From positions 1 through 59,730 of IMG/VR virus record IMGVR_UViG_3300020395_000008: 59,730 bases of DNA. One strand, written 5' to 3'. Position 1 is the first letter of the stretch, and each line of letters starts with the position of its first letter. The notes beneath the pieces are model-generated. The model worked only from the letters and a program-made list of their open reading frames with translations. It was not told where the DNA came from and ran no database searches. Both the position numbers and the translations under genes were made by a program. Source of the DNA: a virus (Duplodnaviria; Caudoviricetes). Shown in pieces: positions 3,202 through 50,497 of the stretch.

Positions 3202-3819
3202 ATGGGGACTCCGAAGCCACATAAAAAAGTATTATCAGATTTAAAGGCATCTATTTTAAGTCCTGCACTTACTTCTCATTTCCAATGCTGGTTTTATCCA
3301 CCTCCTCAAGTAAGAAGTTTATTAGAAGGTGATGAAAGGGATGATAGATTTATTTCATTATCATGTTCTGAAGCATCATTACCTGGAACTTCATTAGCCA
3401 CTAATGAAATGATTAATGATCATACAGGAGTCACAGAAAGACATGCTTATAGAAGACAATATGATGCAACTTCTTCTTTTACTTTTTATGTAGATCATGA
3501 TTATACAATGCTTACTTTTTTTGAAAAATGGATAGGGTTTATTGTGAATGAACCAAATTTAGATTTATCTGAAAGATCTGAATTTGGATTAAATCGGGAT
3601 GATTATTTTTATAGGGTCAATTTCCCTAAAGAATATCAAACTGCTATTTACATTAAAAAGTTTGAAAAGGATTATAATAATGGAAAGATGCTACAATATA
3701 AGTTTTTAAAATCTTATCCTGTCAGTATTGATTCAATGCCAGTTACATATGAGGCATCTCAGGTGCTTAAATGTACTGTTAATTTTAACTTCTCCCGTTA
3801 TTGGGTAGAGACCACCTAA
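3202..3819 (+). CDS. tail-tube-fold baseplate protein (gp54-like tail tube initiator)
   Basis: CSEASLPG, FTFYVD...FFEKW, YPVSIDSMPVTY...KCTVNF typical of the gp19/gp54 fold; synteny. Confidence 0.7.
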   Translation: MGTPKPHKKVLSDLKASILSPALTSHFQCWFYPPPQVRSLLEGDERDDRFISLSCSEASLPGTSLATNEMINDHTGVTERHAYRRQYDATSSFTFYVDHDYTMLTFFEKWIGFIVNEPNLDLSERSEFGLNRDDYFYRVNFPKEYQTAIYIKKFEKDYNNGKMLQYKFLKSYPVSIDSMPVTYEASQVLKCTVNFNFSRYWVETT

Positions 3820-3850: not shown

Positions 3851-4570
3851 ATGCCTTTACCAAAGATTGCGACACCGACGTATGAGTTGGAATTACCTTC
3901 GACCAAAAAACCTATTCATTATAGACCATTTTTAGTTAAAGAAGAAAAACTTTTAGTTCTTGCCTTAGAAAGTGAGGATATAAAGGAGATAACAACTGCA
4001 ATTAAAAATGTAATTAAAGCTTGTATTAAAACACGAGGGATTAAAGTAGAGAGTCTTCCTACTTTTGATATTGAATATTTGTTCCTTAACATTCGTGGTA
4101 AGTCTGTTGGAGAAGATATTGAAGTTAATCTTATGTGTCCTGATGATGGTAAAACTCAAGTTCCTGTAACTATTAGTATTGATGATGTTCAAATTCAACG
4201 AACTGAAGGGCATACTAATAAGATTAAATTAGATGATTCTCTAATGATGGAGATGAAGTATCCATCTCTGGGTGAGTTTATTAAAAATAATTTTGATTTT
4301 AGTGAAGAGAATGTGATGACTCAATCTTTTGATTTAATTGCTTCTTGTATTGATAAAATTTATAATGAAGAAGAAGTATGGAGTATGGGTGATTGTACTA
4401 AGAAAGAAATTAATACTTTCTTAGAGTCAATGAATTCATCTCAGTTTAAAGAGATTGAAAAGTTCTTTGAGACAATGCCTAAACTTTCACATACGGTGAA
4501 ACTCACTAATCCGAATACTAAGGTAGAAAGTGAAGTTGTAATGGAGGGTTTATCCAGTTTTTTCGGTTAG
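3851..4570 (+). CDS. gp26: baseplate hub subunit/assembly protein gp26
   Basis: MPLPKIATPTYELELPS..YRPFLVKEEK, FDIEYLFLNIRGKSVGE, FFETMPKL motifs. Confidence 0.93.
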   Translation: MPLPKIATPTYELELPSTKKPIHYRPFLVKEEKLLVLALESEDIKEITTAIKNVIKACIKTRGIKVESLPTFDIEYLFLNIRGKSVGEDIEVNLMCPDDGKTQVPVTISIDDVQIQRTEGHTNKIKLDDSLMMEMKYPSLGEFIKNNFDFSEENVMTQSFDLIASCIDKIYNEEEVWSMGDCTKKEINTFLESMNSSQFKEIEKFFETMPKLSHTVKLTNPNTKVESEVVMEGLSSFFG

Positions 4571-4593
4571 CTCTAGTCCACATGGATCTAGAG
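4543..4593 (+). other. candidate -1 programmed ribosomal frameshift signal (gp26 to gp51)
   Basis: GGAGG at 4543-4547, in-frame heptamer T TTT TTC at 4558-4564, hairpin 4571-4593; the -1 frame is open into gp51. Confidence 0.65.
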
Positions 4594-4749
4594 AGTTATT
4601 ATAAGTTGAATTTTTCCTTGATTCAGTACCATAAATATTCATTAACAGAGATTGAAAACTTGATCCCTTGGGAAAGAGACATTTATGTTGAACTACTTCG
4701 AGCACATCTTGAAGAGGAGAAATTAAAACAGCAGCAAGCATCATCTTAA
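4582..4749 (+). CDS. gp51: baseplate hub assembly catalyst gp51 (55 aa, absent from ORF track)
   Basis: Manual translation MDLESYYKLNFSLIQYHKYSLTEIENLIPWERDIYVELLRAHLEEEKLKQQQASS; PWERDIY motif; follows gp26. Confidence 0.9.
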   Translation: MDLESYYKLNFSLIQYHKYSLTEIENLIPWERDIYVELLRAHLEEEKLKQQQASS

Positions 4750-6275
4750 TGGCAGTAGCAGCTAAACCAGAAATTGCACGAATTCTATTGGATCTTGGGA
4801 TTGATCCAGTGGATGTTTATGCTGTTGATAATGCAGAACAAACTTATATCGCTGCATTAGTAGAAGGTATTAATACTCTTGAAGTTGCTAATAAAGGAGA
4901 GAGCACAAGATCAAAAATACTACGAGAGGAACTTAAAGGAGTAAGAGAGAAGAAAAGGAAAAAGGTAAGTGCTAGTAAATTATTTGCTCAGAAAAAAATA
5001 TTACCTGTTAGTAGGATTCGTTCTCAGGCATTACTTTCTCCAGCATCTGAAGGAGAATCATCTGCTGGAGAAGGAAAAGGTGTGGGTAACATATTAAATG
5101 GTATTTTAAATATTTTAAGATTGGGAAATAAGCAAGATAAAAAAGAATCTGCTGAAGATAGAAAAGAAAGACAAAGGCAAAGAAGAGAAAAAAGAGAAAG
5201 TGCAATAGAGTCATTGAAGGGAGGAACAAAAAAGGCTGCGAGTGCAGGTAAGAAAGCAGTAAGTTCTTTAATTTCTCCTTTTAAAAATATGTTGGATGGA
5301 TTAATTAATTTTCTTAAGGTTACTCTTTTAGGAACGTTGATTAATGGTGCTTTGAACTGGTTTAGTAAAAAAGAAAATCAGAGGAAGATAACAAATTTGG
5401 GAAGATTTTTTAAAGATTGGTGGCCTTCATTACTAGCAGGATTTTTATTATTTTTTACACCTATAGGTACTTTAGTTTCTGCAACTGCAACTTTATTAGC
5501 ATGGGCTCTTCCTGCACTTGCAGCTCTTGCTAAAAATCCTCTTATAGCAGGAGCAGCCTTATTCAGTGCAGGAAAAATTGCTCCTGAATTATTTCCTGAT
5601 CTTGTAAAAGATGAAGCGGATACGGCAATTGATGACTCTGTAAATAAACAAGGTTCAGATAAAACTATCACTGATTTAAAAGAACAACAAGAGAATAGGG
5701 GTCCGTTGCAGAGAATAGGTGATTTTATTACTGGTGCAGGAGCAGAAAGAGAAGAACAAATACAAAAATTAGAAACGGGAGAAGAAAAGAAATTTGGATT
5801 CTTTGGGGAAATAAAACCAAAGAAAATGAATGAAGGTGGAATAGTACCTGCTCCTTATCCTGTAGATAATGTATTGGGTACGGTTGGATTGACTGATGCG
5901 GAGAATACTCCTCCTATTATAACGGGATATAATAAAGGCGGGGTTGTTCCTGGAATGGGCAATAAAGATACAGTTCCTGCCATGTTAACTCCAGGTGAAC
6001 TGGTTATTCCTAAAAATTTGCTGGAAGGTCCAACTAATCCAACTAATGTTGATAGATCTTTTATGACTCCTGTAAAGAGTACTGCTAGAACTCCTGTCGG
6101 TACTCCTGTAAAAGTTAAGTCTATGAGTACTACTACAGTATTACCTCCAATTAAAAAACCTAAACCTTCTCAAAGGATAAGAGAAGGAAGTACTATTCCT
6201 GTCTTTAGAGTTGCTAGTAAATCTAATGCTAGAGAAATTACAATAAGATCATTGGGGATTGAAGAGGCATTATAA
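4749..6275 (+). CDS. putative tape-measure-like/baseplate protein A
   Basis: Basic coiled segment, long hydrophobic stretch, GGVVPG.GNKDTVPAMLTPGELVI motif seen in tape-measure proteins; position after gp26/gp51. Confidence 0.55.
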   Translation: MAVAAKPEIARILLDLGIDPVDVYAVDNAEQTYIAALVEGINTLEVANKGESTRSKILREELKGVREKKRKKVSASKLFAQKKILPVSRIRSQALLSPASEGESSAGEGKGVGNILNGILNILRLGNKQDKKESAEDRKERQRQRREKRESAIESLKGGTKKAASAGKKAVSSLISPFKNMLDGLINFLKVTLLGTLINGALNWFSKKENQRKITNLGRFFKDWWPSLLAGFLLFFTPIGTLVSATATLLAWALPALAALAKNPLIAGAALFSAGKIAPELFPDLVKDEADTAIDDSVNKQGSDKTITDLKEQQENRGPLQRIGDFITGAGAEREEQIQKLETGEEKKFGFFGEIKPKKMNEGGIVPAPYPVDNVLGTVGLTDAENTPPIITGYNKGGVVPGMGNKDTVPAMLTPGELVIPKNLLEGPTNPTNVDRSFMTPVKSTARTPVGTPVKVKSMSTTTVLPPIKKPKPSQRIREGSTIPVFRVASKSNAREITIRSLGIEEAL

Positions 6276-7540
6276 TGACTGTAGTTACTCAAAAACTTTT
6301 ACCTTCGGCTAAGATAGTTGCTAAAAAGAAAACTATTCCTGTTAGTACTCTTAAATCCGTTGAAATAGAGAATTCAACTGAGACTTCTTCTCTTAAAGAG
6401 AAATTGATCTTAATCAAGAATTTTTTAGGAGAAAAATATGAACGTGGATTAACTTCTTGGAGAATGAAACGAAGGCAAAGACAAGAAGAGAAACGTAAGT
6501 TAAGAGAAGAAAAGATAGAAAAAAAGAAAGAAACTAAGGTGACTTTACCTAAAGTTTCTAATCCTTTCTCAAATATTTTTAAATCTATCAGTAATTTTCT
6601 TTTATTTTTAGGAGGAGGGATTCTCCTTAATGCGTTTTTGGATTTGCAGGATTTATTTATTGTTCTTGAAGAGAAAATTTTACCTGCAATAAAGACAGGA
6701 ATTTTAATCTTTGCTGGTGTAATATCAAATACAACTGATTTTATTGATTCTGCCTATGCGGGTTATGATAAGTTTAAAAAACAAATTTTAGATATAACTG
6801 GAGTAAAGGAAGAAGATGTTGAAAAATTTTCGGGTCTTTTGAATAAGGTAATTAATGGAACTATTATTGCCGCAATGATAACTTTGAGAGCCCTTCCAGG
6901 TATTTTAAGCCGAAGGGGATTAAATTCAGGTAGGGGTGGTGGTAGTCCTAGAATAACACGAGGTAGAGGTACTCCTCGACCTTTTTTAGATCGTTTTAGA
7001 AGTAATCGTCGTATATCATCTCCATCTTTAGCAACTACTAAATCATTACCAAGAGGAGGTCGTCCGAAAGTGACAGGTTTTACACCTGGAAAATTTGGAA
7101 GGTCTGCTGTTACTAATTTTTCAAGAAAAACTCTTGTTAGAACTTTAGGTAAACCTGCTACTAAAACCTTATTAAAGTTCACTAAGAAGTTTATTACTCC
7201 TGCTGTTAGCAAGATTCCTTTAATTGGGGGTTTAATTGATTTTGCCTTAAATTATTTTGTATTTGGAGATCCTGCAGGTCAAGCCGCATTTAAAGCAATA
7301 GGTGCAGGATTAGGATTATGGATCGGGGGTTTACTTGGTAGTATTCCTGTTCTTTTGCCTTGGGGTCCGTGGGTTGGATCAATGATAGGTAGTACAGCTG
7401 GTGATGCACTAGGGGGACTCATATATGATAGTCTTTTTGGTGATAAAACCTTAGATCTATCTTCAGATTTAAATGAAAATGCGTCTTATGATTTAATTAG
7501 TGATATTACTACTAATATTATCCAACCAATAGAAGTATGA
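6275..7540 (+). CDS. putative tape-measure-like protein B (paralogue of A)
   Basis: Same charged-coil plus amphipathic pattern; Gly-zipper C-terminal region (IPLIGGLIDF, GAGLGLWIGG). Confidence 0.5.
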   Translation: MTVVTQKLLPSAKIVAKKKTIPVSTLKSVEIENSTETSSLKEKLILIKNFLGEKYERGLTSWRMKRRQRQEEKRKLREEKIEKKKETKVTLPKVSNPFSNIFKSISNFLLFLGGGILLNAFLDLQDLFIVLEEKILPAIKTGILIFAGVISNTTDFIDSAYAGYDKFKKQILDITGVKEEDVEKFSGLLNKVINGTIIAAMITLRALPGILSRRGLNSGRGGGSPRITRGRGTPRPFLDRFRSNRRISSPSLATTKSLPRGGRPKVTGFTPGKFGRSAVTNFSRKTLVRTLGKPATKTLLKFTKKFITPAVSKIPLIGGLIDFALNYFVFGDPAGQAAFKAIGAGLGLWIGGLLGSIPVLLPWGPWVGSMIGSTAGDALGGLIYDSLFGDKTLDLSSDLNENASYDLISDITTNIIQPIEV

Positions 7541-8895
7541 CTGCTAATCCATTACAATTTAATAAGTTTGAGATTAAGTCTAATGTAGATAGTAGGACTG
7601 TGGATCTACGTGGATCAGGAACTCCTATTATTGAATATCGTGAGAGTATTTTTATGCCTTATGTTGAAGTAACAGCATATATTGTTGATACTGGTAATAC
7701 TTTACCTGCAGATGATGGAACTGATGCTGGTATTGGTTTATTAGAGTCTGGTTTTTGCCAAGGAACAGAAACTATATTGTTTAATATTGCCGATCAAAGA
7801 GGAAATAAAATTAACTTGTCTAATGATAATGATTTAAGAGTTTCTTCTATATCAGATACTCATCAATCTTTTAAGAATACTACTTTTGTTCTTACTGCTG
7901 TTTCTAAGGAAGCATTTGATAATACTTTAGTAGATAATAGATGTAATCTTAAGTATAGTGGACCTATATCTGATATTGCTCGATCCATCGTAAGAGCAAA
8001 TTTAAAATCTCCTAAATGGAGATCGATGAATGTTGATGTTACTTCTAATCAATATCATGAATGGGGTCAAAATAGGTATCCATTTGAGATGATTCTAGAT
8101 CTACAACAATTGGCCATTCCTTATGGAATACAGACTTCAAAAGGTAAAGCACCTGATGGTAAAACTGCAGGATATCTTTTCTGGCAAACCTCTAATGGTT
8201 ATCAATTTAAATCCTTAGATAAATTATTTGACACTAAAGATAAGGTAATTAAAAAATATATTGAGAATAGTAAATCAGGATCTGATCTGTTGCCTGTAGT
8301 AAAAGATCATGAAGTTTATAATGGTAAAATTCTTTGGTCTACCATGTCTAGAAATATTGATGCTCTTAATCAATTTGAATGTGGTGCATGGGGATCTCAG
8401 GTACAGGTGTTTAATGATGTAACCAAGGAATATGAAAAAGTAGATTTATCTTCAGATGGTAAAGGAAATGGTATTAGTGCAGGAAAACATTTACCTCAAC
8501 TAAATTCTGAGTATAAGGATGCAATTACCACCATTGAAAGAATAGATCAAGCAGTTGGCCAGACAGTAGTGGGATTTGATAGTGTAGAACAACAAGTTAG
8601 ACAGACTGGTCAACTTAACTTTGATGTAAAACATACCACTCAACAATCTCATCAAAATTATAGACAAAAGATGAATACTTCAATGGAGATTGTCATTGAG
8701 GCTGATTTAAGTTTACATGCAGGTGATTTGATATTTTGTGACTTTCCTGAACTTTCTACTAAAAAGACACTCAGAGAAAGTAGGGATCGATCAAGTGGCA
8801 TATATATGATAGCAGATCTCTGTCATTATGGTGATAAAGGAAATGCCTTTACTGGTCTGCATTTGGTAAGAGATTCTTATGGAGTTAAAACATGA
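7537..8895 (+). CDS. gp27-like baseplate hub protein
   Basis: GYLFWQT..GYQFKSLD and LHAGDLI...SGIYMIADLCH motifs; upstream of gp5-like gene. Confidence 0.65.
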   Translation: MTANPLQFNKFEIKSNVDSRTVDLRGSGTPIIEYRESIFMPYVEVTAYIVDTGNTLPADDGTDAGIGLLESGFCQGTETILFNIADQRGNKINLSNDNDLRVSSISDTHQSFKNTTFVLTAVSKEAFDNTLVDNRCNLKYSGPISDIARSIVRANLKSPKWRSMNVDVTSNQYHEWGQNRYPFEMILDLQQLAIPYGIQTSKGKAPDGKTAGYLFWQTSNGYQFKSLDKLFDTKDKVIKKYIENSKSGSDLLPVVKDHEVYNGKILWSTMSRNIDALNQFECGAWGSQVQVFNDVTKEYEKVDLSSDGKGNGISAGKHLPQLNSEYKDAITTIERIDQAVGQTVVGFDSVEQQVRQTGQLNFDVKHTTQQSHQNYRQKMNTSMEIVIEADLSLHAGDLIFCDFPELSTKKTLRESRDRSSGIYMIADLCHYGDKGNAFTGLHLVRDSYGVKT

Positions 8896-9155
8896 CTATT
8901 AAACACGACTTAGAACACGAAGTTTACATTGATCCTAAAGATGGTAAGGAGCATACTAATCATGGTATGCATGAATATACTAAAGAAGACTTAGAGAATG
9001 TTCATGCTGATTATGATGTTTATCATAAAGATGACGTAGTGGATACGAATGAAGGTAAGATTAATGATTATCATACACGTCATGAAGATCATCATTTGGA
9101 AATTTATTGCGATAATCATCCAGATGCAGATGAATGTAAGGTATACGACGATTAA
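8892..9155 (+). CDS. cp12: CP12 Calvin-cycle inhibitor (auxiliary metabolic gene), His-rich variant
   Basis: C-terminal LEIYCDNHPDADECKVYDD is the CP12 C-x8-C motif. Confidence 0.85.
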   Translation: MTIKHDLEHEVYIDPKDGKEHTNHGMHEYTKEDLENVHADYDVYHKDDVVDTNEGKINDYHTRHEDHHLEIYCDNHPDADECKVYDD

Positions 9156-27144: not shown

Positions 27145-28404
27145 ATGACTAGAAGAGGGGTATGGGACATTCAGGATGTAAGGGATAAACTCCTTGCAGG
27201 AGATCCTTGGAATAGATATAATGCTCTGTTTACATCAGGAATTAATATCTATGGGGAATTAGGACAAAATAATCAAGATGGTACTGGAATAGGAACAAAA
27301 CTTGCACAGGTTGATTCACAAGAGAATTTTGCACATGTTGGTGGATGTGATAATACTTCATTTGGAGTTACGGAAGATGGAAAATTATATTCATGGGGAG
27401 CTTCACAGGCGGGAAGATTAGCAAATGGTGGACCAAATTTTAAATATTATTCATCACCAGTTCAAGTACCTGGTACAACATGGGCTGCTACTTGTTATTC
27501 TGACACCTATTCTATGATGGCAACCAAGACTGATGGATCCGCATGGTTTTGGGGAGGTTCAGGTCCAAGCAACTATGCAAGAAGTATAGCGGGATGGCCG
27601 TATAATAATAGTTGTTCTTCTCCAGTTTTGATACCTGGTACTTGGACAGCAAATCCTAATAGAATAGATCAGCAAAAAATGATATTCACAGAAAAATCAG
27701 GATTTGCCATTGATGCAAGTGGTAATTTATATTCATGGGGAAGTAATGGTCATGGATGCTTGGGACTCAATGCACCAGATACTGTGGTTGCTAAAACTCA
27801 AGTAGGTACTGATTCTACTTGGCAATGGGTTACTGGTTATCATCATAGTCCTTCTTCTAATACTGCGGCCGTTAAAACTGACGGTACACTGTGGATGGTA
27901 GGTGGAGGAGGAGCTCCTAATGGATGTTTAGGATTAGGACCATATAAACCAGATGGACTTTCCTCCCCAACTCAAATAGGTACTCTTGATCATTGGACGA
28001 GTGTTACTTCTGGACAGATGTATTGGCTCGGAGGAGGTTTTGCTGCATGTGATAATTCAGGAAAAATATTTGTATGGGGAGCAACTGATACAGGGACGTT
28101 TGGGACAAATCAAGCAGATGTCCAAATTTCTTCCCCATATAATTTACCTGGTGGACCTTATAAAATGGTTCAGATATGTGAAAAGACTATGATTCGTATG
28201 AAAGGCGATGACACTTTATGGGTAAGTGGTGATGTTCATGCTGCTGGAATGGTTCCCGAAACAGGACATCAGTATATGTCATCACCAGTTCAAGTACCTG
28301 GTGCTGTTGTTGGATTCTCTAGTGATAAGATTGGTATGTGGGGCAGCGGTACTTACCTGAATATAGGAGTTATCGGTCCTAACTTGACCCCTGCTCAATT
28401 ATAA
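27145..28404 (+). CDS. RCC1/BLIP-II-like beta-propeller protein
   Basis: Repeated KTDG.LW.WG...LG...SSPxQ.PG blades. Confidence 0.85.
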   Translation: MTRRGVWDIQDVRDKLLAGDPWNRYNALFTSGINIYGELGQNNQDGTGIGTKLAQVDSQENFAHVGGCDNTSFGVTEDGKLYSWGASQAGRLANGGPNFKYYSSPVQVPGTTWAATCYSDTYSMMATKTDGSAWFWGGSGPSNYARSIAGWPYNNSCSSPVLIPGTWTANPNRIDQQKMIFTEKSGFAIDASGNLYSWGSNGHGCLGLNAPDTVVAKTQVGTDSTWQWVTGYHHSPSSNTAAVKTDGTLWMVGGGGAPNGCLGLGPYKPDGLSSPTQIGTLDHWTSVTSGQMYWLGGGFAACDNSGKIFVWGATDTGTFGTNQADVQISSPYNLPGGPYKMVQICEKTMIRMKGDDTLWVSGDVHAAGMVPETGHQYMSSPVQVPGAVVGFSSDKIGMWGSGTYLNIGVIGPNLTPAQL

Positions 28405-29149: not shown

Positions 29150-30379
29150 ATGGCTATAACTGATAAAGAACAGGGAGTCTGGGATGTTGATCAGGTTTAT
29201 AATAAAATAAACCAAGGTGGCATCTGGAAATATAATGGTGCAGCAGGGGAACCTGGTGGTGTATGGCAGTGGTACTACGATAATTATGGAAGATTAGGAA
29301 TTAATGAGGAACCCACTACTCCGAATACTTATTATTCTTCTCCTGTTATGGCTAATGGAACATTTGATGATAGTTGGGGGCAGACTATTACTACGTTTGC
29401 AAGGGGAAATGATGGATCACTGTGGGCATGGGGATATAATGGTATGGGATTATTAGGACAAAATGATACTGCCAGTCGTTCTGTACCAGTTCAAATAGGA
29501 ACTGATACTGATTGGGCTAAGAATGGTAGTATTGGGAGGTGGGTCAAAACTAATGGAGCAATGTATGTTTGTGGCCCCAATAGTGATGGAGCACTTGGTC
29601 TTAATATGCATTATGGTTCTGGGGAGGTGACTTCAAGTACTGGAAAATCATCACCAGTTCAACTAGGAACTGAGACTACATGGGCCCAATCAGAATATTC
29701 CCATTCAAAGTTGTTTAGTCTTAAAACTGATGGAACCGCATGGTATTGGGGAGGTTGGAGTTTTGGATGTGCAGGAAATGGAACAACATCTGGAACTCGT
29801 TCATCACCAACTCAACTTGCTGGATATACTTTTGCCAGTATGGGAAATTGTGGTGCTCCTACTACTCATCATTATGGGGGAGTTACTCCAACTGGATCTT
29901 TGTATATGTGGGGAGCAAATGCTTCTGGACAATTAGGACTTAATGAAGGCCCTTATAGAGCTCCTTGGCAACCTAACTGGGGTAGAACTAACAGAGATAA
30001 ATCTACTCCTAATAGTGTGCCTGGTACTACATGGAAATACATGCAGAACGGTCTAAGCACTACTCTTGCAAGTAAAACTGATGGTACATTATGGGCATGG
30101 GGATATGGTGCTCCTGGAGGATTGGGACTTAATAGCACAGGACAATATTCATCACCCACCCAAATCGGAACTGACACTACATGGACAGGAAAGATATTCC
30201 AATCTGGTTATAGGTCTGCTGCTGTCAAGACTGATGGATCAATATGGGTATGGGGAGCTAATAGTTATGGTGGTTTAGGGGTTAATGATAATACAAGTTA
30301 TTCATCACCTATTCAATTACCTGGATCGTGGACAGATATGGGAGATGGTTACTATATGAACCTCATCAAAGCTGGATAA
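29150..30379 (+). CDS. RCC1-like beta-propeller protein
   Basis: Seven WG/LG/SSPxQ repeat units. Confidence 0.87.
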   Translation: MAITDKEQGVWDVDQVYNKINQGGIWKYNGAAGEPGGVWQWYYDNYGRLGINEEPTTPNTYYSSPVMANGTFDDSWGQTITTFARGNDGSLWAWGYNGMGLLGQNDTASRSVPVQIGTDTDWAKNGSIGRWVKTNGAMYVCGPNSDGALGLNMHYGSGEVTSSTGKSSPVQLGTETTWAQSEYSHSKLFSLKTDGTAWYWGGWSFGCAGNGTTSGTRSSPTQLAGYTFASMGNCGAPTTHHYGGVTPTGSLYMWGANASGQLGLNEGPYRAPWQPNWGRTNRDKSTPNSVPGTTWKYMQNGLSTTLASKTDGTLWAWGYGAPGGLGLNSTGQYSSPTQIGTDTTWTGKIFQSGYRSAAVKTDGSIWVWGANSYGGLGVNDNTSYSSPIQLPGSWTDMGDGYYMNLIKAG

Positions 30380-33495: not shown

Positions 33496-34190
33496 AAAGA
33501 GCCATATTTACATTTTATAATCTTTCTCTTGATATTGATATCGTAAGACTTCAGGCAGAGGTAGTTAATAAACTTAATACAACAGCAGACTTTCTTCCGT
33601 TATGTTCTCAGACACATGGAGAGGAAGTTATTCATCCTGATGCGGTTGATTATGGATTTACTCAATTGTTTGTAGAGAAGAAGTATGATACTGTTCTTTT
33701 ATTAGATGTGGATTGTATTCCTTTAAATGCTTATGCACTTGAATATACTTTTGAGCAAGCAGAGAAAGGTAAGTTGATTGGTAATGTACAGAGAGGAATG
33801 CATTTAGACAATGATGAGCATAATTATGTTGCACCATCAGCATTTTGTTTGACACGTCAGATGTATGAAGACTTTGGAAGAATGACAGTGAAACCTGATC
33901 ATAGGAAGGCTGATACTTGTGGATATTATACTTATAGAGCACAGGAAAATGGAATAGATGTTGAGATGTACCAACCCACTCACTTTCAACGTAGACCTAA
34001 AGAGGGTGTATGGGATCTTGGGAAAGGTCGTGGAGAATGGGGTATAGGTACTACATATTCAAATCATCTAGGAGTAGAAATGTTCTATCATTTATTTTCT
34101 GCTCGTGAAAAAATATATAATGTTTACTTCTATGATAAATGTGAGAAGATTGTAGGAATAAATAGGTTGAAAGGATCCTCTCAGGTATAA
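33492..34190 (+). CDS. putative GT-A glycosyltransferase
   Basis: YDTVLLLDVDCIPL DxD motif; cluster context. Confidence 0.65.
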   Translation: MKRAIFTFYNLSLDIDIVRLQAEVVNKLNTTADFLPLCSQTHGEEVIHPDAVDYGFTQLFVEKKYDTVLLLDVDCIPLNAYALEYTFEQAEKGKLIGNVQRGMHLDNDEHNYVAPSAFCLTRQMYEDFGRMTVKPDHRKADTCGYYTYRAQENGIDVEMYQPTHFQRRPKEGVWDLGKGRGEWGIGTTYSNHLGVEMFYHLFSAREKIYNVYFYDKCEKIVGINRLKGSSQV

Positions 34191-35419
34191 TGGCAGAACT
34201 TAGACAAAATACTTGGACATTAAATCAATGGTATGATCAGGATGTGGCAGGAGATGCGAAGTATGCGGCCGCAGGTAAATTATGGGCATGGGGATATAAT
34301 TTATATGGACAATTAGGACAGAATCAAAGTGGACCTACAGCAAGTTATTCATCACCAATTCAAATAGGAACTGATACTAATTGGAGTAAGGTAGCGAATA
34401 ATGGTTACAACAATATGTTTGGCATGAAACAGGATGGAAGTTTATGGGCATGGGGAAGGAACTCAACTTACATAGGAGGTGGATCTTTAGGACTTAATGA
34501 TGCTATAGATCGTTCATCACCAACTCAATTACCTGGTACAGGGTGGCAGATGACTCGTGATACTTTTAATTCGGGTTATGGGGCTACAAGTGCCATAAAA
34601 GAAAATGGATCATTATGGATATGGGGATCTAATCAAGAGGCACAATTAGGTCTTCCAAGAGTTGCACCTTATTGGTATTATCTATTAGAGTATTCATCAC
34701 CTGTTCAACTTCCTGGAAATTATTCCAAAACGAGATATGGGAGTAGACTGAGTACTGGTGGAGCATTGTCGATGTGGGGTGCTAATCAATTTGGTGAATG
34801 TGGGCAAAACACTGGTCCTACAACACCAATGGGTGCTTATTCATCACCTGTTCAAATACCAGGTACTTGGTCTGATTTTATGAGAACTAATAATGCACCC
34901 TATCAATCTTGTAGTGGAATTAAAAGTGATGGAACCTTATGGGCATGGGGATATGGTGGTGAGGGAGCATTGGGACTAAATGATAGATCATATCGTTCAT
35001 CACCAACTCAAGTACCAGGTACGTGGTTAAGATGTGCTAGTGGAAATCAAGGCGTTTATCAAGCATGGCAAAAACCTGATGGATCTATATGGTTTGCAGG
35101 AGGTTCTACATCCCCCTACATTAACTTTGGATATCCTGGTAAGAGATCCTCACCCACACAAGTTCCTGGTACAATGATACCATCAATAAGTCATTTTGTT
35201 ATTGGTGGTCAAGGACTCTTTTTAGATGTACCTAATAGTAAAAATTATGTTACTGGTCCTAATGGTCAAGGTAAACAGGGAAATAATACTACCCCTGGTG
35301 GATATGCAGATGTAACTTATGTTCCTTCGGTATGGGATAAGTTTAAAGATAGTGGGATGGGTATAGATCAGATAGGAAATGCAAATTCTGACTCAAACTT
35401 TGCCATTGAACAACAATAA
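34190..35419 (+). CDS. RCC1-like beta-propeller protein
   Basis: LWAWG.N.YGQLG...SSPxQ repeats; AATAAATA late-like core at 34157-34164. Confidence 0.87.
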   Translation: MAELRQNTWTLNQWYDQDVAGDAKYAAAGKLWAWGYNLYGQLGQNQSGPTASYSSPIQIGTDTNWSKVANNGYNNMFGMKQDGSLWAWGRNSTYIGGGSLGLNDAIDRSSPTQLPGTGWQMTRDTFNSGYGATSAIKENGSLWIWGSNQEAQLGLPRVAPYWYYLLEYSSPVQLPGNYSKTRYGSRLSTGGALSMWGANQFGECGQNTGPTTPMGAYSSPVQIPGTWSDFMRTNNAPYQSCSGIKSDGTLWAWGYGGEGALGLNDRSYRSSPTQVPGTWLRCASGNQGVYQAWQKPDGSIWFAGGSTSPYINFGYPGKRSSPTQVPGTMIPSISHFVIGGQGLFLDVPNSKNYVTGPNGQGKQGNNTTPGGYADVTYVPSVWDKFKDSGMGIDQIGNANSDSNFAIEQQ

Positions 35420-45749: not shown

Positions 45750-48323
45750 ATGCCATCACGAAAGGCCCAATTAGTTTCACCTTTATCGGGAGATTATATT
45801 CCTATAGCAGGACTGAGTGTGACAGGAGTTATCACTGCTATAGGTGGAATATCTGGACCAGTAACAGGAGCTGCACAATCAATTACTGATGGTGCTAATT
45901 TAGATTTGGGAACCGTTACAGCAACTACTTTTGTTGGAGATTCTATTGGTACATATAGAGCAGCAGGATTAACTAATACAGGTGCAGGTACATCTAATTT
46001 AAATGTAGGAGTAGTTACTGCTACAAGTATTTCGGGAGTGGTTACAGGAAATATTACAGGTACAGCAAGTAGTATAATCAGTGGATCAGATTTAACAGTT
46101 GGTGTTGCTACTGCTGTAACATGGTTAGGTGATGGATCAGGAATTACAGGTGCTGGTTCAAGTGCATTTATAGGACAGTCTGTTAGTGCTGGAACAGGAA
46201 CTACTACAATTGATTTAAGTAGTGGTAATATAATTAATTTTACTCAAACAGTTAAAACCACTACTGTATCATTTGCAAATACTGGAACAGCGAATAGAGT
46301 TACTATTATTAGAAACCCTAATGCTGAAAATATAGACTGGAATATAAGTTACTCCACTGGTGGTGTAGAATTTGATGGTACTGATTATTTAAGTATTCCT
46401 GATGATAGTGATTTTACTTTTGGAACAGATGATTTTACTATTGAATTTTGGTATAAAACAAATAATATTTCTGGTCTAGCAAATGGTTATGACTACATTT
46501 TTTCTTCAGGATGGCCTGTTCAACTAGCACATCATGAGAGTGGTGGTAGTAAGATTGGTTTTTGGATGAGAGACAGTGCTACTGGTGATAGTGGTAGTTA
46601 TTTCATAAGTGATTTAAATACTGGTGGAGGTTCAATTGCTTCAACATCTGTTTGGTATCATATAGCAGTAACAAGAAGTGGTAGTACCTTTAGAATATTT
46701 TTAGATGGTGTATTAAAAAATACACAAACTTCTTCAAGTTCTGCTCCAGCACCTGGTGAAGCTGCACAAATAGGTCGATTCGCTGGTGGTATGGATAGTA
46801 TGTATGCGAATGGAACGCTATCTAACTTCAGGTATATAAAAGGAACTGCACTTTATACTCAAGATTTTGTACCCCCATCAGCAGCACTTACGAATGTAAC
46901 CAATACTAAACTTTTATGTTGTCAATCAGATAGTTCTACTACTACTGCTGCTGTTATTCCTACTGGATCTATAACAGCTGGTGGAGATCCAACCGCAGCT
47001 GCTGAAACTGTTGCTTCCTCTGGAACTACAGTAATACTTCCACAAAACATAGAATGGCCTAGTAGTATTAAATGGAATGATGACAGCACACCTACTTTAA
47101 TTTCTAACGTTAGAACTTCTGCATTCCAAGTTTTTAATTTAACTACTGCCGATGCGGGAGTAACTTGGTATGGATGGGAGAGTTTTGAGGATGATCCCCA
47201 AACATTTACTCTGTGGTCATGGGGATATAATTATAGGGGACAATTAGGACAAGATAATGTAACACCCCTTTCATCACCAAAACAAGTTCCTGGTACTACT
47301 TGGTTAATGACGAATAATGGATGTAGTTATGTAGCCAACAATGTATCTATAGCAACTAAAAGTGATGGAACTATATGGTCATGGGGATATGGTAGTCAAG
47401 GAATGTTAGGACTGAACCAGAGTACACCCTCTGCAAAAATCTCATCACCCACCCAAATCGGAAGTAATACTAATTGGGGAGTGGGAAGTTCGAGTAGATC
47501 AGTTCTATGGTCTAAAACTGATGGAACACTATGGGCATGGGGATATAATACTGGTGGACAATTAGGACTTAATGAATCAGGGCCTGGGACTCCTAAAAAA
47601 TCATCACCCACCCAAGTAGGAACTGATACTAATTGGTCAACTTCCCATTCTACGGGAGGAAAGTATGCATCGGATCAAAATTCACCATCTGGTCGCACAG
47701 GAGCAATTAAAACTGATGGATCGTTGTGGATGATGGGAAATGGAGACTTAGGACAAAATAATACGACAAGATATTCATCACCAGTTCAAATTCCTGGCAG
47801 TTGGAAATCAATTAGTCTGAGTGGAGGGGGTTCCATTGCTCTTAAAACTGATGGAACAGCATGGGCATGGGGAACTAATAGTAATGCAATGTTAGGACAA
47901 AATAATAGAACAACATATTCATCACCAATTCAAATACCTGGCAGTTGGGCATCAATTACTTCAGGAAGACAGAATTCTTCTGGAGTTAAAACTGATGGAA
48001 CACTGTGGTCATGGGGATATAATAATTATGGTCAATTAGGACTCGGTGATAAAACATCATATTCATCACCAGTTCAAGTAGGAGCCAACGACACATGGTC
48101 TACTAATGCTTTTGCTGCTGGTGCTATGGGATATTTGTATAATACTACATATCTTAAAACTAATGGAACATTATGGACATGGGGAAGGAATGATAAAGGA
48201 CAATTAGGTCAAAGTCTTCCAGTTAATTCTCATCGTTCATCACCAGTTCAAATTCCTGGTACTAATTGGGGAGGTGTCACAAAGAGTGGAGAGACAGTGG
48301 TAGCACACCAATTTACCGCATGA
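45750..48323 (+). CDS. tail fibre/adhesin: stalk + LamG/ConA-like lectin domain + RCC1 propeller
   Basis: KAQL N-terminus, FDGTDYL...DFTIEFW...WYHIAVTR...SNFR..KGTALYT, seven SSPxQ blades. Confidence 0.87.
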   Translation: MPSRKAQLVSPLSGDYIPIAGLSVTGVITAIGGISGPVTGAAQSITDGANLDLGTVTATTFVGDSIGTYRAAGLTNTGAGTSNLNVGVVTATSISGVVTGNITGTASSIISGSDLTVGVATAVTWLGDGSGITGAGSSAFIGQSVSAGTGTTTIDLSSGNIINFTQTVKTTTVSFANTGTANRVTIIRNPNAENIDWNISYSTGGVEFDGTDYLSIPDDSDFTFGTDDFTIEFWYKTNNISGLANGYDYIFSSGWPVQLAHHESGGSKIGFWMRDSATGDSGSYFISDLNTGGGSIASTSVWYHIAVTRSGSTFRIFLDGVLKNTQTSSSSAPAPGEAAQIGRFAGGMDSMYANGTLSNFRYIKGTALYTQDFVPPSAALTNVTNTKLLCCQSDSSTTTAAVIPTGSITAGGDPTAAAETVASSGTTVILPQNIEWPSSIKWNDDSTPTLISNVRTSAFQVFNLTTADAGVTWYGWESFEDDPQTFTLWSWGYNYRGQLGQDNVTPLSSPKQVPGTTWLMTNNGCSYVANNVSIATKSDGTIWSWGYGSQGMLGLNQSTPSAKISSPTQIGSNTNWGVGSSSRSVLWSKTDGTLWAWGYNTGGQLGLNESGPGTPKKSSPTQVGTDTNWSTSHSTGGKYASDQNSPSGRTGAIKTDGSLWMMGNGDLGQNNTTRYSSPVQIPGSWKSISLSGGGSIALKTDGTAWAWGTNSNAMLGQNNRTTYSSPIQIPGSWASITSGRQNSSGVKTDGTLWSWGYNNYGQLGLGDKTSYSSPVQVGANDTWSTNAFAAGAMGYLYNTTYLKTNGTLWTWGRNDKGQLGQSLPVNSHRSSPVQIPGTNWGGVTKSGETVVAHQFTA

Positions 48324-48343: not shown

Positions 48344-50497
48344 ATGAGTCAGACTAAAGCACAATTATTAGCACCTATAGGAGTAGTAACCGCACCAGGA
48401 CTTACTGTTACGGGTGTTTTAACTACGACGAGTGCTTTTGACGGACCTGTGACTGGTACGGCTAATAGTATTGTTCAAGGAAGTAATATAATTGTAGGAG
48501 TAATGACTGCAGCAGGGTTTGCGGGTGATTTTACAGGAACAGCAACAGGAATTAAAACAACTTCAAATTTAAATGTTGGTGTGGTTACTGCCTTAAGTTT
48601 TGTTGGTGATGTAACGGGAAATCTAACAGGATCAGCAGGTGGATTATCAGGTACTCCAAATGTTCATGTAGGAGTAGTTACTTCTTCTGCAATGTCAGGG
48701 GATGGTAGTAATTTAACAGGAATAGCAGCAACTGCTTTTACTTCTCAAACTGTTCCTGGAACAACATATGCAATAGATGTTACCTCTCCTGCTGGTGGAA
48801 ACTATACACTATCTGGAACTGATAGAAATGGTTCAGTTAGTGGTAGTGATCCAACAGTTACTGTTGAGGTAGGTGATACACTTAATTTTGTTGTGGATGC
48901 TTCAGGACATCCATTTTATATTAGAGTGTCAGATGGAGGTGCAAATGTAAGTACTCCTGCAGCAACCAATCAAGGTTCTCAAAGTGGCACTGTTTCTTGG
49001 ACACCTAACACTGCTGGTACTTATTATTATCAGTGTGGAAATCATGCTGGTATGATTGGAACCATTACTGTAACTGCTACAACGACAATAGATATAAGTG
49101 CTGGTAACAATATAGTTTTTAATCTAACTTCAAATACAACTGTTTCATTTGCAAATACAGGAACTACCGAAGTTATTAGTATTACTTTTCCCAATGCAAC
49201 TGGTAATATAATATGGCCTGATAGTGTTAGATGGAATGGTGGAGTCGCACCTAAGATGCAGCATTCAGATGATGCTAATCAATTTACTAATGAGTGGAAC
49301 GTCCTTAAATTATTAACTCGTGATTCAGGTCTATCATGGAAAGGATGGGAAGAATCATCATATAATGGTTCTTATTATGCATATGTAACGGGAAGTAATA
49401 CTTATGGAGCATTAGGACAAAATAATACAGTAAAATATTCATCACCAACTCAATTAGGAGCTGGATATAAAGGTATGAGAAGTTGTGCTATTTTCCAATA
49501 TGGTACTTCATATACAAAAACTGATGGAACACTGTGGGGTTCAGGGGCTAATTACTTTGGAATGTTAGGTCTTAATGATACAACATTCCGTTCATCACCA
49601 GTTCAAGTAGGAAGCGATAAGACATGGGATAAAGTATCATACATCTGGAAACACAAATATGGTATTAAAACTGATGGAACAATGTGGGCATGGGGACTTA
49701 ATGATTATGGATCATTAGGACTTAATCAGGCAAATAATCTAGCTCTATCATCACCAACTCAACTACCTGGTACTAATTGGAAAAGTGTAATGGGATCTTA
49801 TTACAACAATGCGGCCGTTAAAACTGACGGTACATTGTGGACATGGGGACTTAATTATGGTGGAGGATTAGGACTTAATCAAGGTTATACTCCTACATTT
49901 CAGGGAATAAGTTCACCTACACAACTTCCTGGTACTGGTTGGCTTAATACAGCATCGGCAGGTTATGAACATATGGCCGTTGATGATGGTGGTGGATTAT
50001 GGACATGGGGAAGTAATTCTTATGGTCAATTAGGACAGAATAATAACACAGCATATTCATCACCAGTTCAAATTTACTCTGGTTTTTCTGCAACTCCGTG
50101 GTCTGGGTGGGCTCAGGCGGCGAACTCTATGGTAGGAACTGTGGATGGTGCATATATGGCACTTAAAGCTGATGGAACAATGTGGTCATGGGGACACGGT
50201 GGTGCGGGAATATTGGGACAAAATGATGAAATAAAACGTTCATCACCAACTCAAGTAGGAACTGTAAGTCCTACATTATATTGGACTCATCTGGTGCAGT
50301 CGGGATGGAAGACTATATTCGGAATTAAAAATGATAATACATTATGGGGATGGGGATATAATGCTGATGGTCAACTAGGACTTAATAGCACATTGCCATA
50401 TTATTCATCACCAACTCAAATTCCTGGTGATTGGTATATGAAGGATGGGCAGATTTCAGCTGATGCTTATGCAACTCTTTGGCGTAAAGCTGACTAA
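48344..50497 (+). CDS. tail fibre/adhesin: stalk + cupredoxin-like domain + RCC1 propeller
   Basis: MSQTKAQL, GDTLNF...GHPFYI...GTYYYQCGNHAGMIG, seven SSPxQ blades. Confidence 0.87.
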   Translation: MSQTKAQLLAPIGVVTAPGLTVTGVLTTTSAFDGPVTGTANSIVQGSNIIVGVMTAAGFAGDFTGTATGIKTTSNLNVGVVTALSFVGDVTGNLTGSAGGLSGTPNVHVGVVTSSAMSGDGSNLTGIAATAFTSQTVPGTTYAIDVTSPAGGNYTLSGTDRNGSVSGSDPTVTVEVGDTLNFVVDASGHPFYIRVSDGGANVSTPAATNQGSQSGTVSWTPNTAGTYYYQCGNHAGMIGTITVTATTTIDISAGNNIVFNLTSNTTVSFANTGTTEVISITFPNATGNIIWPDSVRWNGGVAPKMQHSDDANQFTNEWNVLKLLTRDSGLSWKGWEESSYNGSYYAYVTGSNTYGALGQNNTVKYSSPTQLGAGYKGMRSCAIFQYGTSYTKTDGTLWGSGANYFGMLGLNDTTFRSSPVQVGSDKTWDKVSYIWKHKYGIKTDGTMWAWGLNDYGSLGLNQANNLALSSPTQLPGTNWKSVMGSYYNNAAVKTDGTLWTWGLNYGGGLGLNQGYTPTFQGISSPTQLPGTGWLNTASAGYEHMAVDDGGGLWTWGSNSYGQLGQNNNTAYSSPVQIYSGFSATPWSGWAQAANSMVGTVDGAYMALKADGTMWSWGHGGAGILGQNDEIKRSSPTQVGTVSPTLYWTHLVQSGWKTIFGIKNDNTLWGWGYNADGQLGLNSTLPYYSSPTQIPGDWYMKDGQISADAYATLWRKAD

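What the first reader, a model, noticed from the sequence alone, without database searches (positions are those of the whole stretch)
4543..4749. Complete -1 programmed frameshift signal would fuse gp26 to gp51 upstream of tape-measure-like genes
Seen: gp26 ends AGT TTT TTC GGT TAG, giving an in-frame X_XXY_YYZ heptamer T TTT TTC (4558-4564). An internal SD-like GGAGG (4543-4547) lies 10 nt upstream. A hairpin CTCTAG-TCC-acat-GGA-t-CTAGAG (4571-4593) starts 6 nt downstream and contains the gp51 ATG. The -1 frame reads ...FF-RLALVH-MDLESYY with no stop into gp51, giving a ~299-aa fusion. Known: this three-part arrangement matches E. coli dnaX-type frameshifting, and lambda G/GT-type tail assembly chaperones use a -1 shift just upstream of the tape measure gene. 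Inference: gp26/gp51 in these phages are a G/GT-like chaperone pair made by recoding rather than two independent genes. I am not aware of this being standard annotation for T4-like phages.
Basis: partly seen in the sequence, partly recalled or inferred. Interest (0 to 1): 0.88.

Follow-up and report, generated by a model that had tools for sequence, protein, structure and literature searches.

The report
Frameshift in cyanophage tail-chaperone gene gp26/gp51
One tail-assembly gene of this uncultured T4-like cyanophage very probably makes a short and a long protein because some ribosomes slip back one base on a conserved TTTTTTC, a real device that genome records leave unannotated but that a 2022 paper appears to have described.

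Summary
gp26 (3851-4570) ends AGT TTT TTC GGT TAG. T_TTT_TTC (4558-4564) is in frame, GGAGG lies 10 nt upstream, a hairpin (4571-4593) starts 6 nt downstream, and "gp51" lies in the -1 frame.

Within one window the motif is no more than chance (18 copies found, 19.8 expected). Comparison gives it weight. Of 184 distinct gp26 junctions, 182 have a gp51-like extension in the -1 frame, and all 182 have an in-phase T_TTT_TTN.

Phage T4 has two PF12322 genes. gp26 is the short form. gp51 is collinear with gp26 plus the extension. Four complete frameshift-type genomes have only one PF12322 gene. The N-terminal domain of gp26 best matches the three solved tail assembly chaperones.

It is not new. Vladimirov, Gautam and Davidson (Virology 2022) identified these chaperone genes in T4-like phages. 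I saw that paper only through two citing papers. This scan has also noted the same device in many other genomes.

No protein evidence exists here. Transcriptional slippage and separate initiation of gp51 remain minor rivals.

The parts
3202..3819 (+). Tail-tube-like gene directly upstream (gp54/gp19-like). It stands where the tube gene stands before lambda-type chaperone genes.
   Evidence: PHROG phrog_45 'tail tube' E 1.1e-32. Pfam PF23849 Phage_TTP_2 E 1.2e-15.
3851..4570 (+). gp26, the short chaperone form (TAC-N), 239 aa including its own stop codon.
   Evidence: PF12322 T4_baseplate E 1e-74. phrog_150 E 5.9e-79. AlphaFold model pLDDT 94.9. Residues 1 to about 90 best match the three solved tail assembly chaperones.
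4543..4547 (+). Internal SD-like GGAGG, 10 nt upstream of the heptamer. Possible stimulator.
   Evidence: Read directly. GAGG/GGAGG lies at a 10-nt spacer in 112 of 182 junctions. The Glu codon here is GAG in 112 and GAA in 42, against 28% GAG elsewhere in gp26.
4558..4564 (+). Slippery heptamer T_TTT_TTC, the proposed -1 shift site.
   Evidence: An in-phase T_TTT_TTN is present in 182 of 182 junctions that have a -1 extension. Synonymous-site constraint is shown.
4568..4570 (+). gp26 stop codon TAG, one sense codon after the heptamer.
   Evidence: The heptamer starts 10 nt before the stop in 174 of 182 junctions.
4571..4593 (+). Hairpin 6 nt downstream of the heptamer. The gp51 ATG (4582-4584) lies in its loop and 3' arm.
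   Evidence: Minimum-free-energy fold, -11.3 kcal/mol. The inner stem is 84.6% paired across 79 distinct sequences, and 5 of 5 pairs show double changes. Junction windows are more stable than own-locus controls.
4564..4749 (+). -1 frame extension (61 codons plus stop), the C-terminal part of the long form (TAC-NC). It includes the ORF usually annotated as gp51 (4582-4749).
   Evidence: phrog_634 E 2e-25 and a match to the C-terminus of phrog_150. It aligns to T4 gp51 residues 200-244, starting at the slip-site Phe-Arg.
4749..7540 (+). Two tape-measure-like genes (4749-6275 and 6275-7540) directly downstream.
   Evidence: Weak PHROG matches to tail length tape measure families (phrog_934 E 1e-3; phrog_167 E 4.7e-6). 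The syntenic phiM12 gene is annotated 'similarity to phage tape measure proteins'.

Best explanation
gp26 and 'gp51' are one recoded gene for the tail/hub assembly chaperone of this T4-like cyanophage.

Most ribosomes stop at TAG 4568-4570 and make the 239-aa short form (TAC-N). A minority slip back one base on U_UUU_UUC (4558-4564), with the two tRNA-Phe re-pairing on UUU UUU. They read CGG as Arg and continue through the 'gp51' frame to make a 299-aa long form (TAC-NC). The hairpin 6 nt downstream, and in this clade probably the GGAGG 10 nt upstream, raise the slip rate.

By analogy with lambda G/GT (inferred, not shown here), the shared N-terminal chaperone domain holds the tape-measure-like proteins encoded next door. 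The C-terminal extension then recruits a tube or hub component.

Phage T4 makes the same pair from two paralogous genes: 26 (short) and 51 (long, contiguous).

Shown here: the signal, its conservation, the homology and the chaperone-like fold. Inferred: that ribosomes actually shift, the ratio of the two products, and the binding partners.
For: 1. Conservation. All 80 of the closest IMG/VR loci have TTTTTTC 10 nt before the stop and gp51 in the -1 frame. Over 220 sequences with a gp26 match (219 fetched loci plus a slice of the window), 34 are duplicates and 2 run off the locus end. That leaves 184 distinct junctions. Of these, 182 have a gp51-like -1 ORF, and all 182 have an in-phase heptamer: TTTTTTC 154, TTTTTTT 23, TTTTTTA 5. 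They form 13 clusters at 50% identity, and all 13 have the heptamer. Named distant phages keep the arrangement: phiM12, DLP_6, S-PRM1, VmeM-32 and Aswh_1.

2. Synonymous constraint. The codon before Phe-Phe always ends in T (AGT 91, TCT 64, GAT 15, AAT 8, GGT 4). The first Phe codon is always TTT. The second is TTC in 154 of 182, against 27% TTC elsewhere in gp26.

3. The -1 frame is the one under selection. After the heptamer the -1 residue is Arg in 147 of 182. The 0-frame residue varies (A 100, G 36, T 13, and others).

4. Missing start codons. 17 of 182 junctions have no ATG/GTG/TTG within 15 codons of the heptamer, and 26 of 182 have no ATG. In Aeromonas phage Aswh_1 the first ATG/GTG/TTG in the -1 frame of the extension lies about 30 codons past the slip site, inside the conserved region. 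In Vibrio phage VmeM-32 the -1 frame reading of the extension shows no Met codon until about 17 codons after the slip site. Neither record annotates the extension.

5. Collinearity with T4. T4 gp51 has PF12322 at residues 1-201 (E 3.9e-52) plus a C-terminal part matching phrog_634. The window's gp26 profile aligns to gp51 residues 7-188 (probability 94.3%). The -1 ORF aligns to gp51 residues 200-244, starting at the slip-site F-R (E 3e-6; probability 84.6%).

6. Complementary gene counts. T4 has 2 PF12322 genes. Four complete frameshift-type genomes have 1 each.

7. Natural control. T4 gene 26 keeps Phe-Phe at its end but spells it TTC TTT, which is not slippery.

8. Hairpin. The inner stem is 84.6% paired, 5 of 5 pairs have changes on both sides, and 0 of 500 shuffles reach this. 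Slid controls pair in 54% of cells or fewer. Mean folding energy at the junction is -7.9 kcal/mol against -3.1 for control windows. In 115 of 182 junctions it is in the lowest 10% of the locus.

9. Chaperone fold. The top three of 48,161 chains are 3fgx_B (Z 7.9), 2ob9_B, the HK97 tail assembly chaperone (Z 7.7, rmsd 3.4 over 83 residues), and 3klu_A (Z 7.5). The next chain scores 4.8. PMC9603447 calls all three tail assembly chaperones (passages).

10. Synteny. The gene lies between a tube-like gene and tape-measure-like genes.
Against: - There is no protein, ribosome-profiling or reporter evidence. Everything here is comparative.
- 154 of 182 junctions, the window included, have an ATG within 10 codons of the heptamer, so gp51 could also be initiated on its own.
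- Vibrio phage K445 keeps a gp51-like -1 ORF but has no heptamer. Its ATG overlaps the gp26 stop (TAATG), so a free C-terminal protein may be workable.
- The loci are related. The 182 junctions collapse to 27 clusters at 70% identity and 13 at 50%.
- The window hairpin is not significant against shuffles (z -1.43). RNAalifold found no consensus structure. In 18 of 182 junctions the fold is weaker than the locus median, and Aswh_1-type phages lack a stable hairpin.
- The SD-like core is absent in 65 of 182 junctions.
- Fold Z scores of 7.5-7.9 lie in the range the tool calls possibly a common arrangement. Foldseek found nothing significant (best 2ob9_B, E 0.58).
[quoted passage not shown] I could not read it.
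Confidence: 0.78

Rival explanations
1. Transcriptional slippage. RNA polymerase adds one extra U on the T6 run in a fraction of transcripts, and normal translation of those mRNAs gives the same long protein. The ribosome does not shift.
For: - The site is a homopolymer run (T6 here, T7 in 23 of 182 junctions, T8 in locus L211).
- The long form of such chaperones is needed only at a few percent (PMC9603447 passage), so weak slippage could suffice.
- Single database ORFs read straight through the junction as ...FFR..., as if one T had been added (P0005, P0006, P0007 and P0015).
[quoted passage not shown] I did not read the paper.
Against: - The second Phe codon is TTC in 154 of 182 junctions although TTT is the commoner Phe codon (73%). 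This caps the run at six, whereas selection for polymerase slippage would favour a longer run.
- A conserved hairpin at 6-10 nt and an SD-like core at 10 nt are ribosomal stimulators.
- Contigs from RNA libraries of relatives carry the unedited T6C. This is weak evidence, because contigs drop rare variants.
- Programmed slippage sites known to me use runs of about 9 (recalled, not from a call).
Confidence: 0.1
2. No recoding. gp26 and gp51 are two separate proteins. gp51 is started at its own ATG (4582) by termination-reinitiation coupling. The hairpin hides that ATG until a ribosome finishing gp26 opens it. The T-run is only the coding of a conserved Phe-Phe.
For: - An ATG lies within 10 codons of the heptamer in 154 of 182 junctions.
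- The ATG sits inside the hairpin.
- Vibrio phage K445 has a TAATG overlap and no heptamer.
- Public records annotate two genes.
Against: - It does not explain the invariant T at the third position of the preceding codon, the TTT-TTC choice, or Arg conservation in the -1 frame upstream of the ATG.
- 17 of 182 junctions lack any start codon within 15 codons, yet keep the conserved N-terminal part of the extension.
- T4 gp51 is a contiguous protein whose residues 200-208 align to the stretch before the window's ATG.
- T4 gene 26 codes Phe-Phe without a T-run.
Confidence: 0.08

Closest known systems
[quoted passage not shown] Vladimirov, Gautam & Davidson, Virology 2022;566:9-15.
   Same: Same protein family (gp26/gp51, PF12322) and same short/long logic. 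PRFect (PMC10885494, passage) summarises that some T4-like phages carry one short gene plus one long fused gene instead of frameshifting. PMC12846349 (passages) cites the paper for poly-T slippery sequences in TAC-N genes of T4-like phages.
   Different: I could not read the paper (not held). I therefore do not know whether it covers cyanophages, the hairpin, the SD-like element or the counts given here. This window is an uncultured phage whose locus is unannotated.
Phage T4 gp26 (208 aa) and gp51 (249 aa), hub assembly chaperones (Leiman et al. 2010, PMC3004832, Table 2 and passages).
   Same: Both carry PF12322. gp51 has the C-terminal extension homologous to the window's -1 ORF. gp26 ends ...GLKEFFELL, like the window's ...EGLSSFFG.
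   Different: In T4 the two genes are divergently transcribed paralogues, so no shift is possible. The Phe-Phe of gene 26 is TTC TTT, which is not slippery.
Lambda gpG/gpGT and the conserved -1 frameshift of tail assembly chaperone genes (Atkins et al. 2016 review, PMC5009743, passages).
   Same: The gene lies between tube and tape-measure genes. The short form comes from normal decoding and the long form from a -1 shift near the 3' end. The N-terminal domain folds like HK97 gp13.
   Different: The protein is larger (239 aa with an extra C-terminal domain). The heptamer is U_UUU_UUC, whereas lambda's is G_GGA_AAG (recalled). The review lists T4 as the exception. Binding to the tape measure and tube is not shown here.
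Phage P2 E / E+E' tail chaperone frameshift (recalled; mentioned in PMC5009743, only for its higher efficiency).
   Same: A contractile-tailed phage with a T-rich slip site (TTTTTTG as I recall it).
   Different: I detected no sequence homology between the two. The details of P2 come from memory, not from a call.
E. coli dnaX -1 frameshift signal (internal SD, heptamer, downstream stem-loop). Its details are recalled.
   Same: A three-part layout with an SD-like core 10 nt upstream and a hairpin 6 nt downstream.
   Different: The heptamer and tRNA differ (A_AAA_AAG with tRNA-Lys in dnaX). In dnaX the shift truncates the protein, whereas here it extends it. The SD-like element is absent in 65 of 182 relatives.

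Membership tests
PF12322 T4_baseplate (gp26/gp51 family) | Sequence match above the curated cut-off. | tested here: met
   E 1e-74, 251.4 bits against a cut-off of 24.5, residues 9-238. A six-frame search of the window's own record finds one copy.
Frameshifted tail assembly chaperone (lambda G/GT type; TAC-N/TAC-NC) | Two ORFs, the second in the -1 frame and overlapping the end of the first, open from the slip site. | tested here: met
   182 of 184 distinct junctions have the extension in the -1 frame.
Frameshifted tail assembly chaperone (lambda G/GT type; TAC-N/TAC-NC) | [quoted passage not shown] | tested here: met
   T_TTT_TTC at 4558-4564. 182 of 182 junctions with a -1 extension have T_TTT_TTN. 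Synonymous constraint is shown.
Frameshifted tail assembly chaperone (lambda G/GT type; TAC-N/TAC-NC) | Position between the tail tube gene and the tape measure gene. | tested here: met
   The upstream gene matches phrog_45 tail tube / PF23849. The downstream genes give weak tape-measure PHROG matches. The phiM12 record has the same order.
Frameshifted tail assembly chaperone (lambda G/GT type; TAC-N/TAC-NC) | Tail-assembly-chaperone fold of the shared N-terminal part. | tested here: met
   VIA-align wide: the three solved chaperones rank 1-3 of 48,161 chains (Z 7.9, 7.7, 7.5). The next chain scores 4.8. The match covers model residues 1 to about 90. Caveat: Z is below 8, and Foldseek was not significant.
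Frameshifted tail assembly chaperone (lambda G/GT type; TAC-N/TAC-NC) | Two proteins actually made, the long one at a low fixed ratio. | not testable with these tools
   Needs mass spectrometry, western blot or reporter data. The RNA runs on hand were contigs only.
Frameshifted tail assembly chaperone (lambda G/GT type; TAC-N/TAC-NC) | Short form binds the tape measure protein. The extension binds the tube protein. | not testable with these tools
   No binding data. This is an inference from lambda (PMC5009743).
dnaX-type three-element -1 signal | Internal SD-like sequence about 10 nt upstream of the heptamer. | tested here: inconclusive
   Present in the window (GGAGG 4543-4547). GAGG/GGAGG lies at a 10-nt spacer in 112 of 182 junctions, with GAG enriched (73% against 28% background). 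It is absent in 65 of 182 and not fixed in position in phiM12 or DLP_6.
dnaX-type three-element -1 signal | Stable stem-loop 5-9 nt downstream. | tested here: met
   The window hairpin is -11.3 kcal/mol with a 6-nt spacer. Compensatory changes are seen. It is not universal: in 18 of 182 junctions the fold is weaker than the locus median.
dnaX-type three-element -1 signal | A_AAA_AAG heptamer decoded by tRNA-Lys (recalled). | tested here: not met
   The heptamer is T_TTT_TTC. The signal works like dnaX in layout but is not a member.
Programmed transcriptional slippage | Long homopolymer run (about 9 or more, recalled) whose reading phase does not matter. | tested here: not met
   The run is 6 in 154 of 182 junctions and is capped by a selected C. 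Its phase is fixed in 182 of 182. Low-level slippage is not excluded.

The most novel reading that the evidence does not exclude
In cyanophage-type T4-like phages the shift is ribosomal and is tuned by a dnaX-like pair of stimulators: an internal GAGG 10 nt upstream, kept by synonymous codon choice, and a covarying hairpin 6 nt downstream. The same hairpin also masks the gp51 ATG. The locus could then yield three products (short form, long form and a little free C-terminal peptide) in a set ratio. The one-gene frameshift would be the ancestral state of all T4-like phages, and T4's two-gene arrangement a later replacement. If the 2022 paper did not cover these points, they would be a new variant of the known device.
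Probability: 0.25. Interest if true: 0.45.

Novelty: new member of a known kind. Interest (0 to 1): 0.3.

Why it matters
It corrects the annotation of a core gene pair in hundreds of cyanophage and other T4-like genomes. The small "gp51, baseplate hub assembly catalyst" ORF is most likely the tail of a frameshift product, not a gene of its own. In some records it is not annotated at all.

It also places T4-like phages under the general rule that long-tailed phages make a short and a long tail chaperone. A 2016 review still listed T4 as the exception.

The very deep conservation (U_UUU_UUY across hosts from Prochlorococcus to Aeromonas) makes this a convenient natural system for studying -1 frameshifting in cyanobacteria. 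The principle itself is already in print.

Tried and rejected
- RNAalifold on 81 junction sequences gave no consensus structure, because the outer stem changes register between clades. I counted pairs on a named inner stem instead.
- Foldseek against the PDB gave no match at E <= 0.001.
- Sequencing runs: all 24 listed were Logan contigs. Laying X15, X16, X17 and X1 showed only that contigs of relatives cross the junction with T6C. Nothing on rare +1 U transcripts can be read from contigs.
- Complex prediction, with the C-terminal extension (alignment A3) as partner of the upstream tube-like protein (A4): 'no answer', score 0.00. This says nothing for or against binding.
- Tree of PF12322 domains: T4 gp26 and the gp51 N-terminal part join, but on two long branches with support 86/60. 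The order of events (duplication in the T4 line versus an ancestral pair) stays open.
- The search for homologous proteins in 'longer' mode found only single-member ORFs that read through the junction (30 proteins at E <= 0.01 among 56 candidates). I take these as probable homopolymer indels in assemblies, not as a natural fused lineage among close relatives. One of them (P0005) served as a stand-in to model the long form (pLDDT 91; extension helical). That model matches contiguous long forms in BFVD over 250-281 columns.
- A scan with Aeromonas gp26 as query gave only 6 loci.
- Literature: searches found nothing on a gp26/gp51 frameshift. led to the 2022 paper through citing papers. The paper itself is not held, and three other citing papers only list it in their references.
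Full report
**What is there.** The window is a 59.7-kb fragment of an uncultured T4-like cyanophage. Its own record is rated 27% complete. The closest isolates by gp26 are P-TIM68 and SynMITS9220M01 at about 77%.

The gene order on the + strand is as follows:
- a tail-tube-like gene (3202-3819)
- gp26 (3851-4570; PF12322, E 1e-74)
- a 55-codon ORF usually called gp51 (4582-4749; phrog_634, E 2e-25)
- two tape-measure-like genes (4749-6275 and 6275-7540)
- a gp27-like gene
- a CP12 ORF
- a gp5-like hub gene

- GGAGG at 4543-4547
- T_TTT_TTC at 4558-4564, in the gp26 frame
- one more codon (GGT), then TAG at 4568-4570
- a hairpin at 4571-4593 that starts 6 nt after the heptamer and holds the gp51 ATG
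- an open -1 frame from the heptamer to 4749

A -1 shift would give 238 + 61 = 299 residues.

**Is it more than chance?** Not within one window. TTTTTTC occurs 18 times against 19.8 expected. The hairpin is unremarkable against shuffles (z -1.43).

The weight comes from comparison. In the 80 closest IMG/VR loci (70-90% gp26 identity; the best 80 of 597 confirmed relatives), all 80 have TTTTTTC exactly 10 nt before the stop and gp51 in the -1 frame.

I widened the sample with three divergent queries and with named phages. I then scored all loci with HMMs for gp26 and for the extension. Of the 220 sequences scored (219 fetched loci plus a slice of the window, all with a gp26 match), 2 run off the end and 34 are duplicates. 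That leaves 184 distinct junctions. Of these, 182 have a gp51-like ORF in the -1 frame, and all 182 have an in-phase T_TTT_TTN (C 154, T 23, A 5). In 174 the heptamer lies 10 nt before the stop.

The two remaining junctions are a truncated locus (L215) and Vibrio phage K445. K445 lacks the heptamer and starts its gp51-like ORF at a TAATG overlap.

The 182 junctions are not independent. They form 127 clusters at 90% identity, 27 at 70% and 13 at 50%. All 13 carry the heptamer. Carriers include phages of Sinorhizobium, Stenotrophomonas, Aeromonas and Vibrio.

**Selection acts on the nucleotides and on the -1 frame.**
- The codon before Phe-Phe always ends in T. This holds across both serine codon families and three other residues (AGT 91, TCT 64, GAT 15, AAT 8, GGT 4).
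- The first Phe codon is always TTT.
- The second Phe codon is TTC in 154 of 182 junctions, although TTC is only 27% of Phe codons elsewhere in gp26.
- The next residue in the gp26 frame is variable, but in the -1 frame it is Arg in 147 of 182.
- 17 of 182 junctions have no ATG, GTG or TTG within 15 codons of the heptamer. 26 of 182 have no ATG.

In Aeromonas phage Aswh_1 the first possible start codon in the extension's -1 frame lies about 30 codons past the slip site, inside the conserved region. In Vibrio phage VmeM-32 the -1 frame shows no Met codon until about 17 codons past the slip site. Neither record annotates the extension. In such genomes the conserved sequence can be made only by a frame change.

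**T4 supplies the key comparison.** In T4, genes 26 and 51 are transcribed divergently, so no fusion is possible. Both proteins are nevertheless PF12322 members.
- gp26 (208 aa) is the domain alone.
- gp51 (249 aa) is the domain (residues 1-201, E 3.9e-52) plus a C-terminal part that matches phrog_634.

The window's gp26 profile aligns to gp51 residues 7-188. The window's -1 ORF aligns to gp51 residues 200-244. That alignment begins at the Phe-Arg encoded on the slip site, upstream of the 'gp51' ATG.

T4 has two PF12322 genes. Four complete frameshift-type genomes have one each.

T4 gp26 still ends ...FFELL, but its Phe-Phe is spelled TTC TTT. The T-run is therefore not needed to encode the protein.

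A model of a database ORF that reads through the junction (a stand-in for the long form; pLDDT 91) shows a helical extension. It matches contiguous 'baseplate hub assembly protein' long forms over 250-281 columns.

**Stimulators.** The inner hairpin stem (columns 20-24 and 29-33 of alignment A1) is paired in 84.6% of cells. All 5 pairs show changes on both sides. None of 500 shuffles reaches this, and slid registers pair in 54% of cells or fewer.

Over all 182 junctions the 36 nt after the heptamer fold at -7.9 kcal/mol on average, against -3.1 for control windows of the same loci. In 115 junctions the fold is in the lowest 10% of its locus. In 18 it is weaker than the median, and some clades have no hairpin.

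The SD-like core is less general. GAGG/GGAGG lies at a 10-nt spacer in 112 of 182 junctions. GAG is used for the Glu codon in 73% of cases against a 28% background. The core is absent in 65 junctions.

**What the protein is.** The gp26 model is confident (pLDDT 94.9). In a search that aligns it to 48,161 representative chains, the top three are 3fgx_B, 2ob9_B and 3klu_A (Z 7.9, 7.7, 7.5, on residues 1 to about 90). The next chain scores 4.8. These are the three solved tail assembly chaperones (PMC9603447, passages). Foldseek ranked 2ob9_B first, but without significance.

T4 gp26 and gp51 are listed as hub assembly chaperones (Leiman et al. 2010, Table 2). Taken with the position between tube-like and tape-measure-like genes, this fits the lambda G/GT model summarised in Atkins et al. 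2016. Binding partners are inferred only.

**Rivals.**
- *Transcriptional slippage* on the T-run would give the same protein. The selected C that caps the run at six, the fixed phase and the ribosome-type stimulators argue against it as the main route. It is not excluded (confidence about 0.1).
- *Two independent proteins* with coupled initiation would explain the ATG inside the hairpin and the K445 case. It would not explain the nucleotide-level constraints, the start-less extensions or the collinearity with T4 gp51 (confidence about 0.08). The window could do both.

**Novelty.** My first four searches found nothing. A later one led to PRFect (PMC10885494). That paper cites Vladimirov, Gautam and Davidson, Virology 2022, for T4-like phages that carry a short gene and a long fused gene of the chaperone instead of frameshifting. 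PMC12846349 cites the same paper for poly-T slippery sequences in TAC-N genes of T4-like phages. The 2022 paper itself is not held, so I cannot say how much of the present detail it contains.

Earlier notes of this scan report the same device in many other genomes, and several name the same paper.

None of the seven public records I opened annotates a joined CDS.

**Verdict.** The recoding signal is real, strongly conserved and still unannotated. This window is a new member of a known kind. Interest is modest.

Noticed in passing
window 8892-9155 (+): An 87-aa ORF with a CP12 domain (Pfam PF02672, E 1e-6) sits between the gp27-like and gp5-like hub genes. This host-derived metabolic regulator domain is embedded in the baseplate module.
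   Followed up: no
window 27145-28404, 29150-30379, 34190-35419, 45750-48323, 48344-50497, 50515-52356, 54332-55717 (+): Seven ORFs match the same PHROG families labelled 'regulator of chromosome condensation' (phrog_4219 and relatives). Some also match tail fibre or baseplate wedge families. They look like a large paralogous set of repeat proteins in the structural region.
   Followed up: no
window 3851-4570 (gp26), residues about 93-100 and 217-225: The family consensus, and T4 gp26 and gp51, carry two CxxC-like motifs. The window's protein has ...MCPDDGK... and ...LTNPNTK... at those places, so most of the putative zinc-binding cysteines are lost. The model is still confident there.
   Followed up: partly
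L086 (Vibrio phage K445) 2560-2800: The only complete junction without a slippery heptamer. gp26 ends ...CTT TTC AAG TAA, and a gp51-like ORF in the -1 frame starts at an ATG overlapping the stop (TAATG). My gp51 HMM did not score it, although the similarity is visible by eye.
   Followed up: partly
L105-L107 (IMG/VR loci), junctions: A small clade has TTTTTTT 31 nt before the gp26 stop instead of 10 nt. It has no start codon in the extension frame for more than 15 codons. The 0-frame tail after the slip site is therefore longer here.
   Followed up: no
window 4749-6275 and 6275-7540 (+): The tape-measure-like function appears as two consecutive ORFs (508 and 421 aa) joined by an ATGA overlap. 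T4 has a single gp29. PHROG matches to tape measure families are weak (E 1e-3 to 5e-6).
   Followed up: no
P0005, P0006, P0007, P0015 (database ORFs): Single-member ORFs from metagenome assemblies read straight from gp26 into the extension as ...FFR..., as if the T-run held one more T. They could be homopolymer errors or real variants. P0007 also runs on past the usual end.
   Followed up: partly
L081 (Synechococcus virus S-PRM1) 2212-2395; L085 2715-2927; L087 2628-2790: In three public records the gp51-like extension is not annotated at all, and the stretch is left as intergenic.
   Followed up: yes
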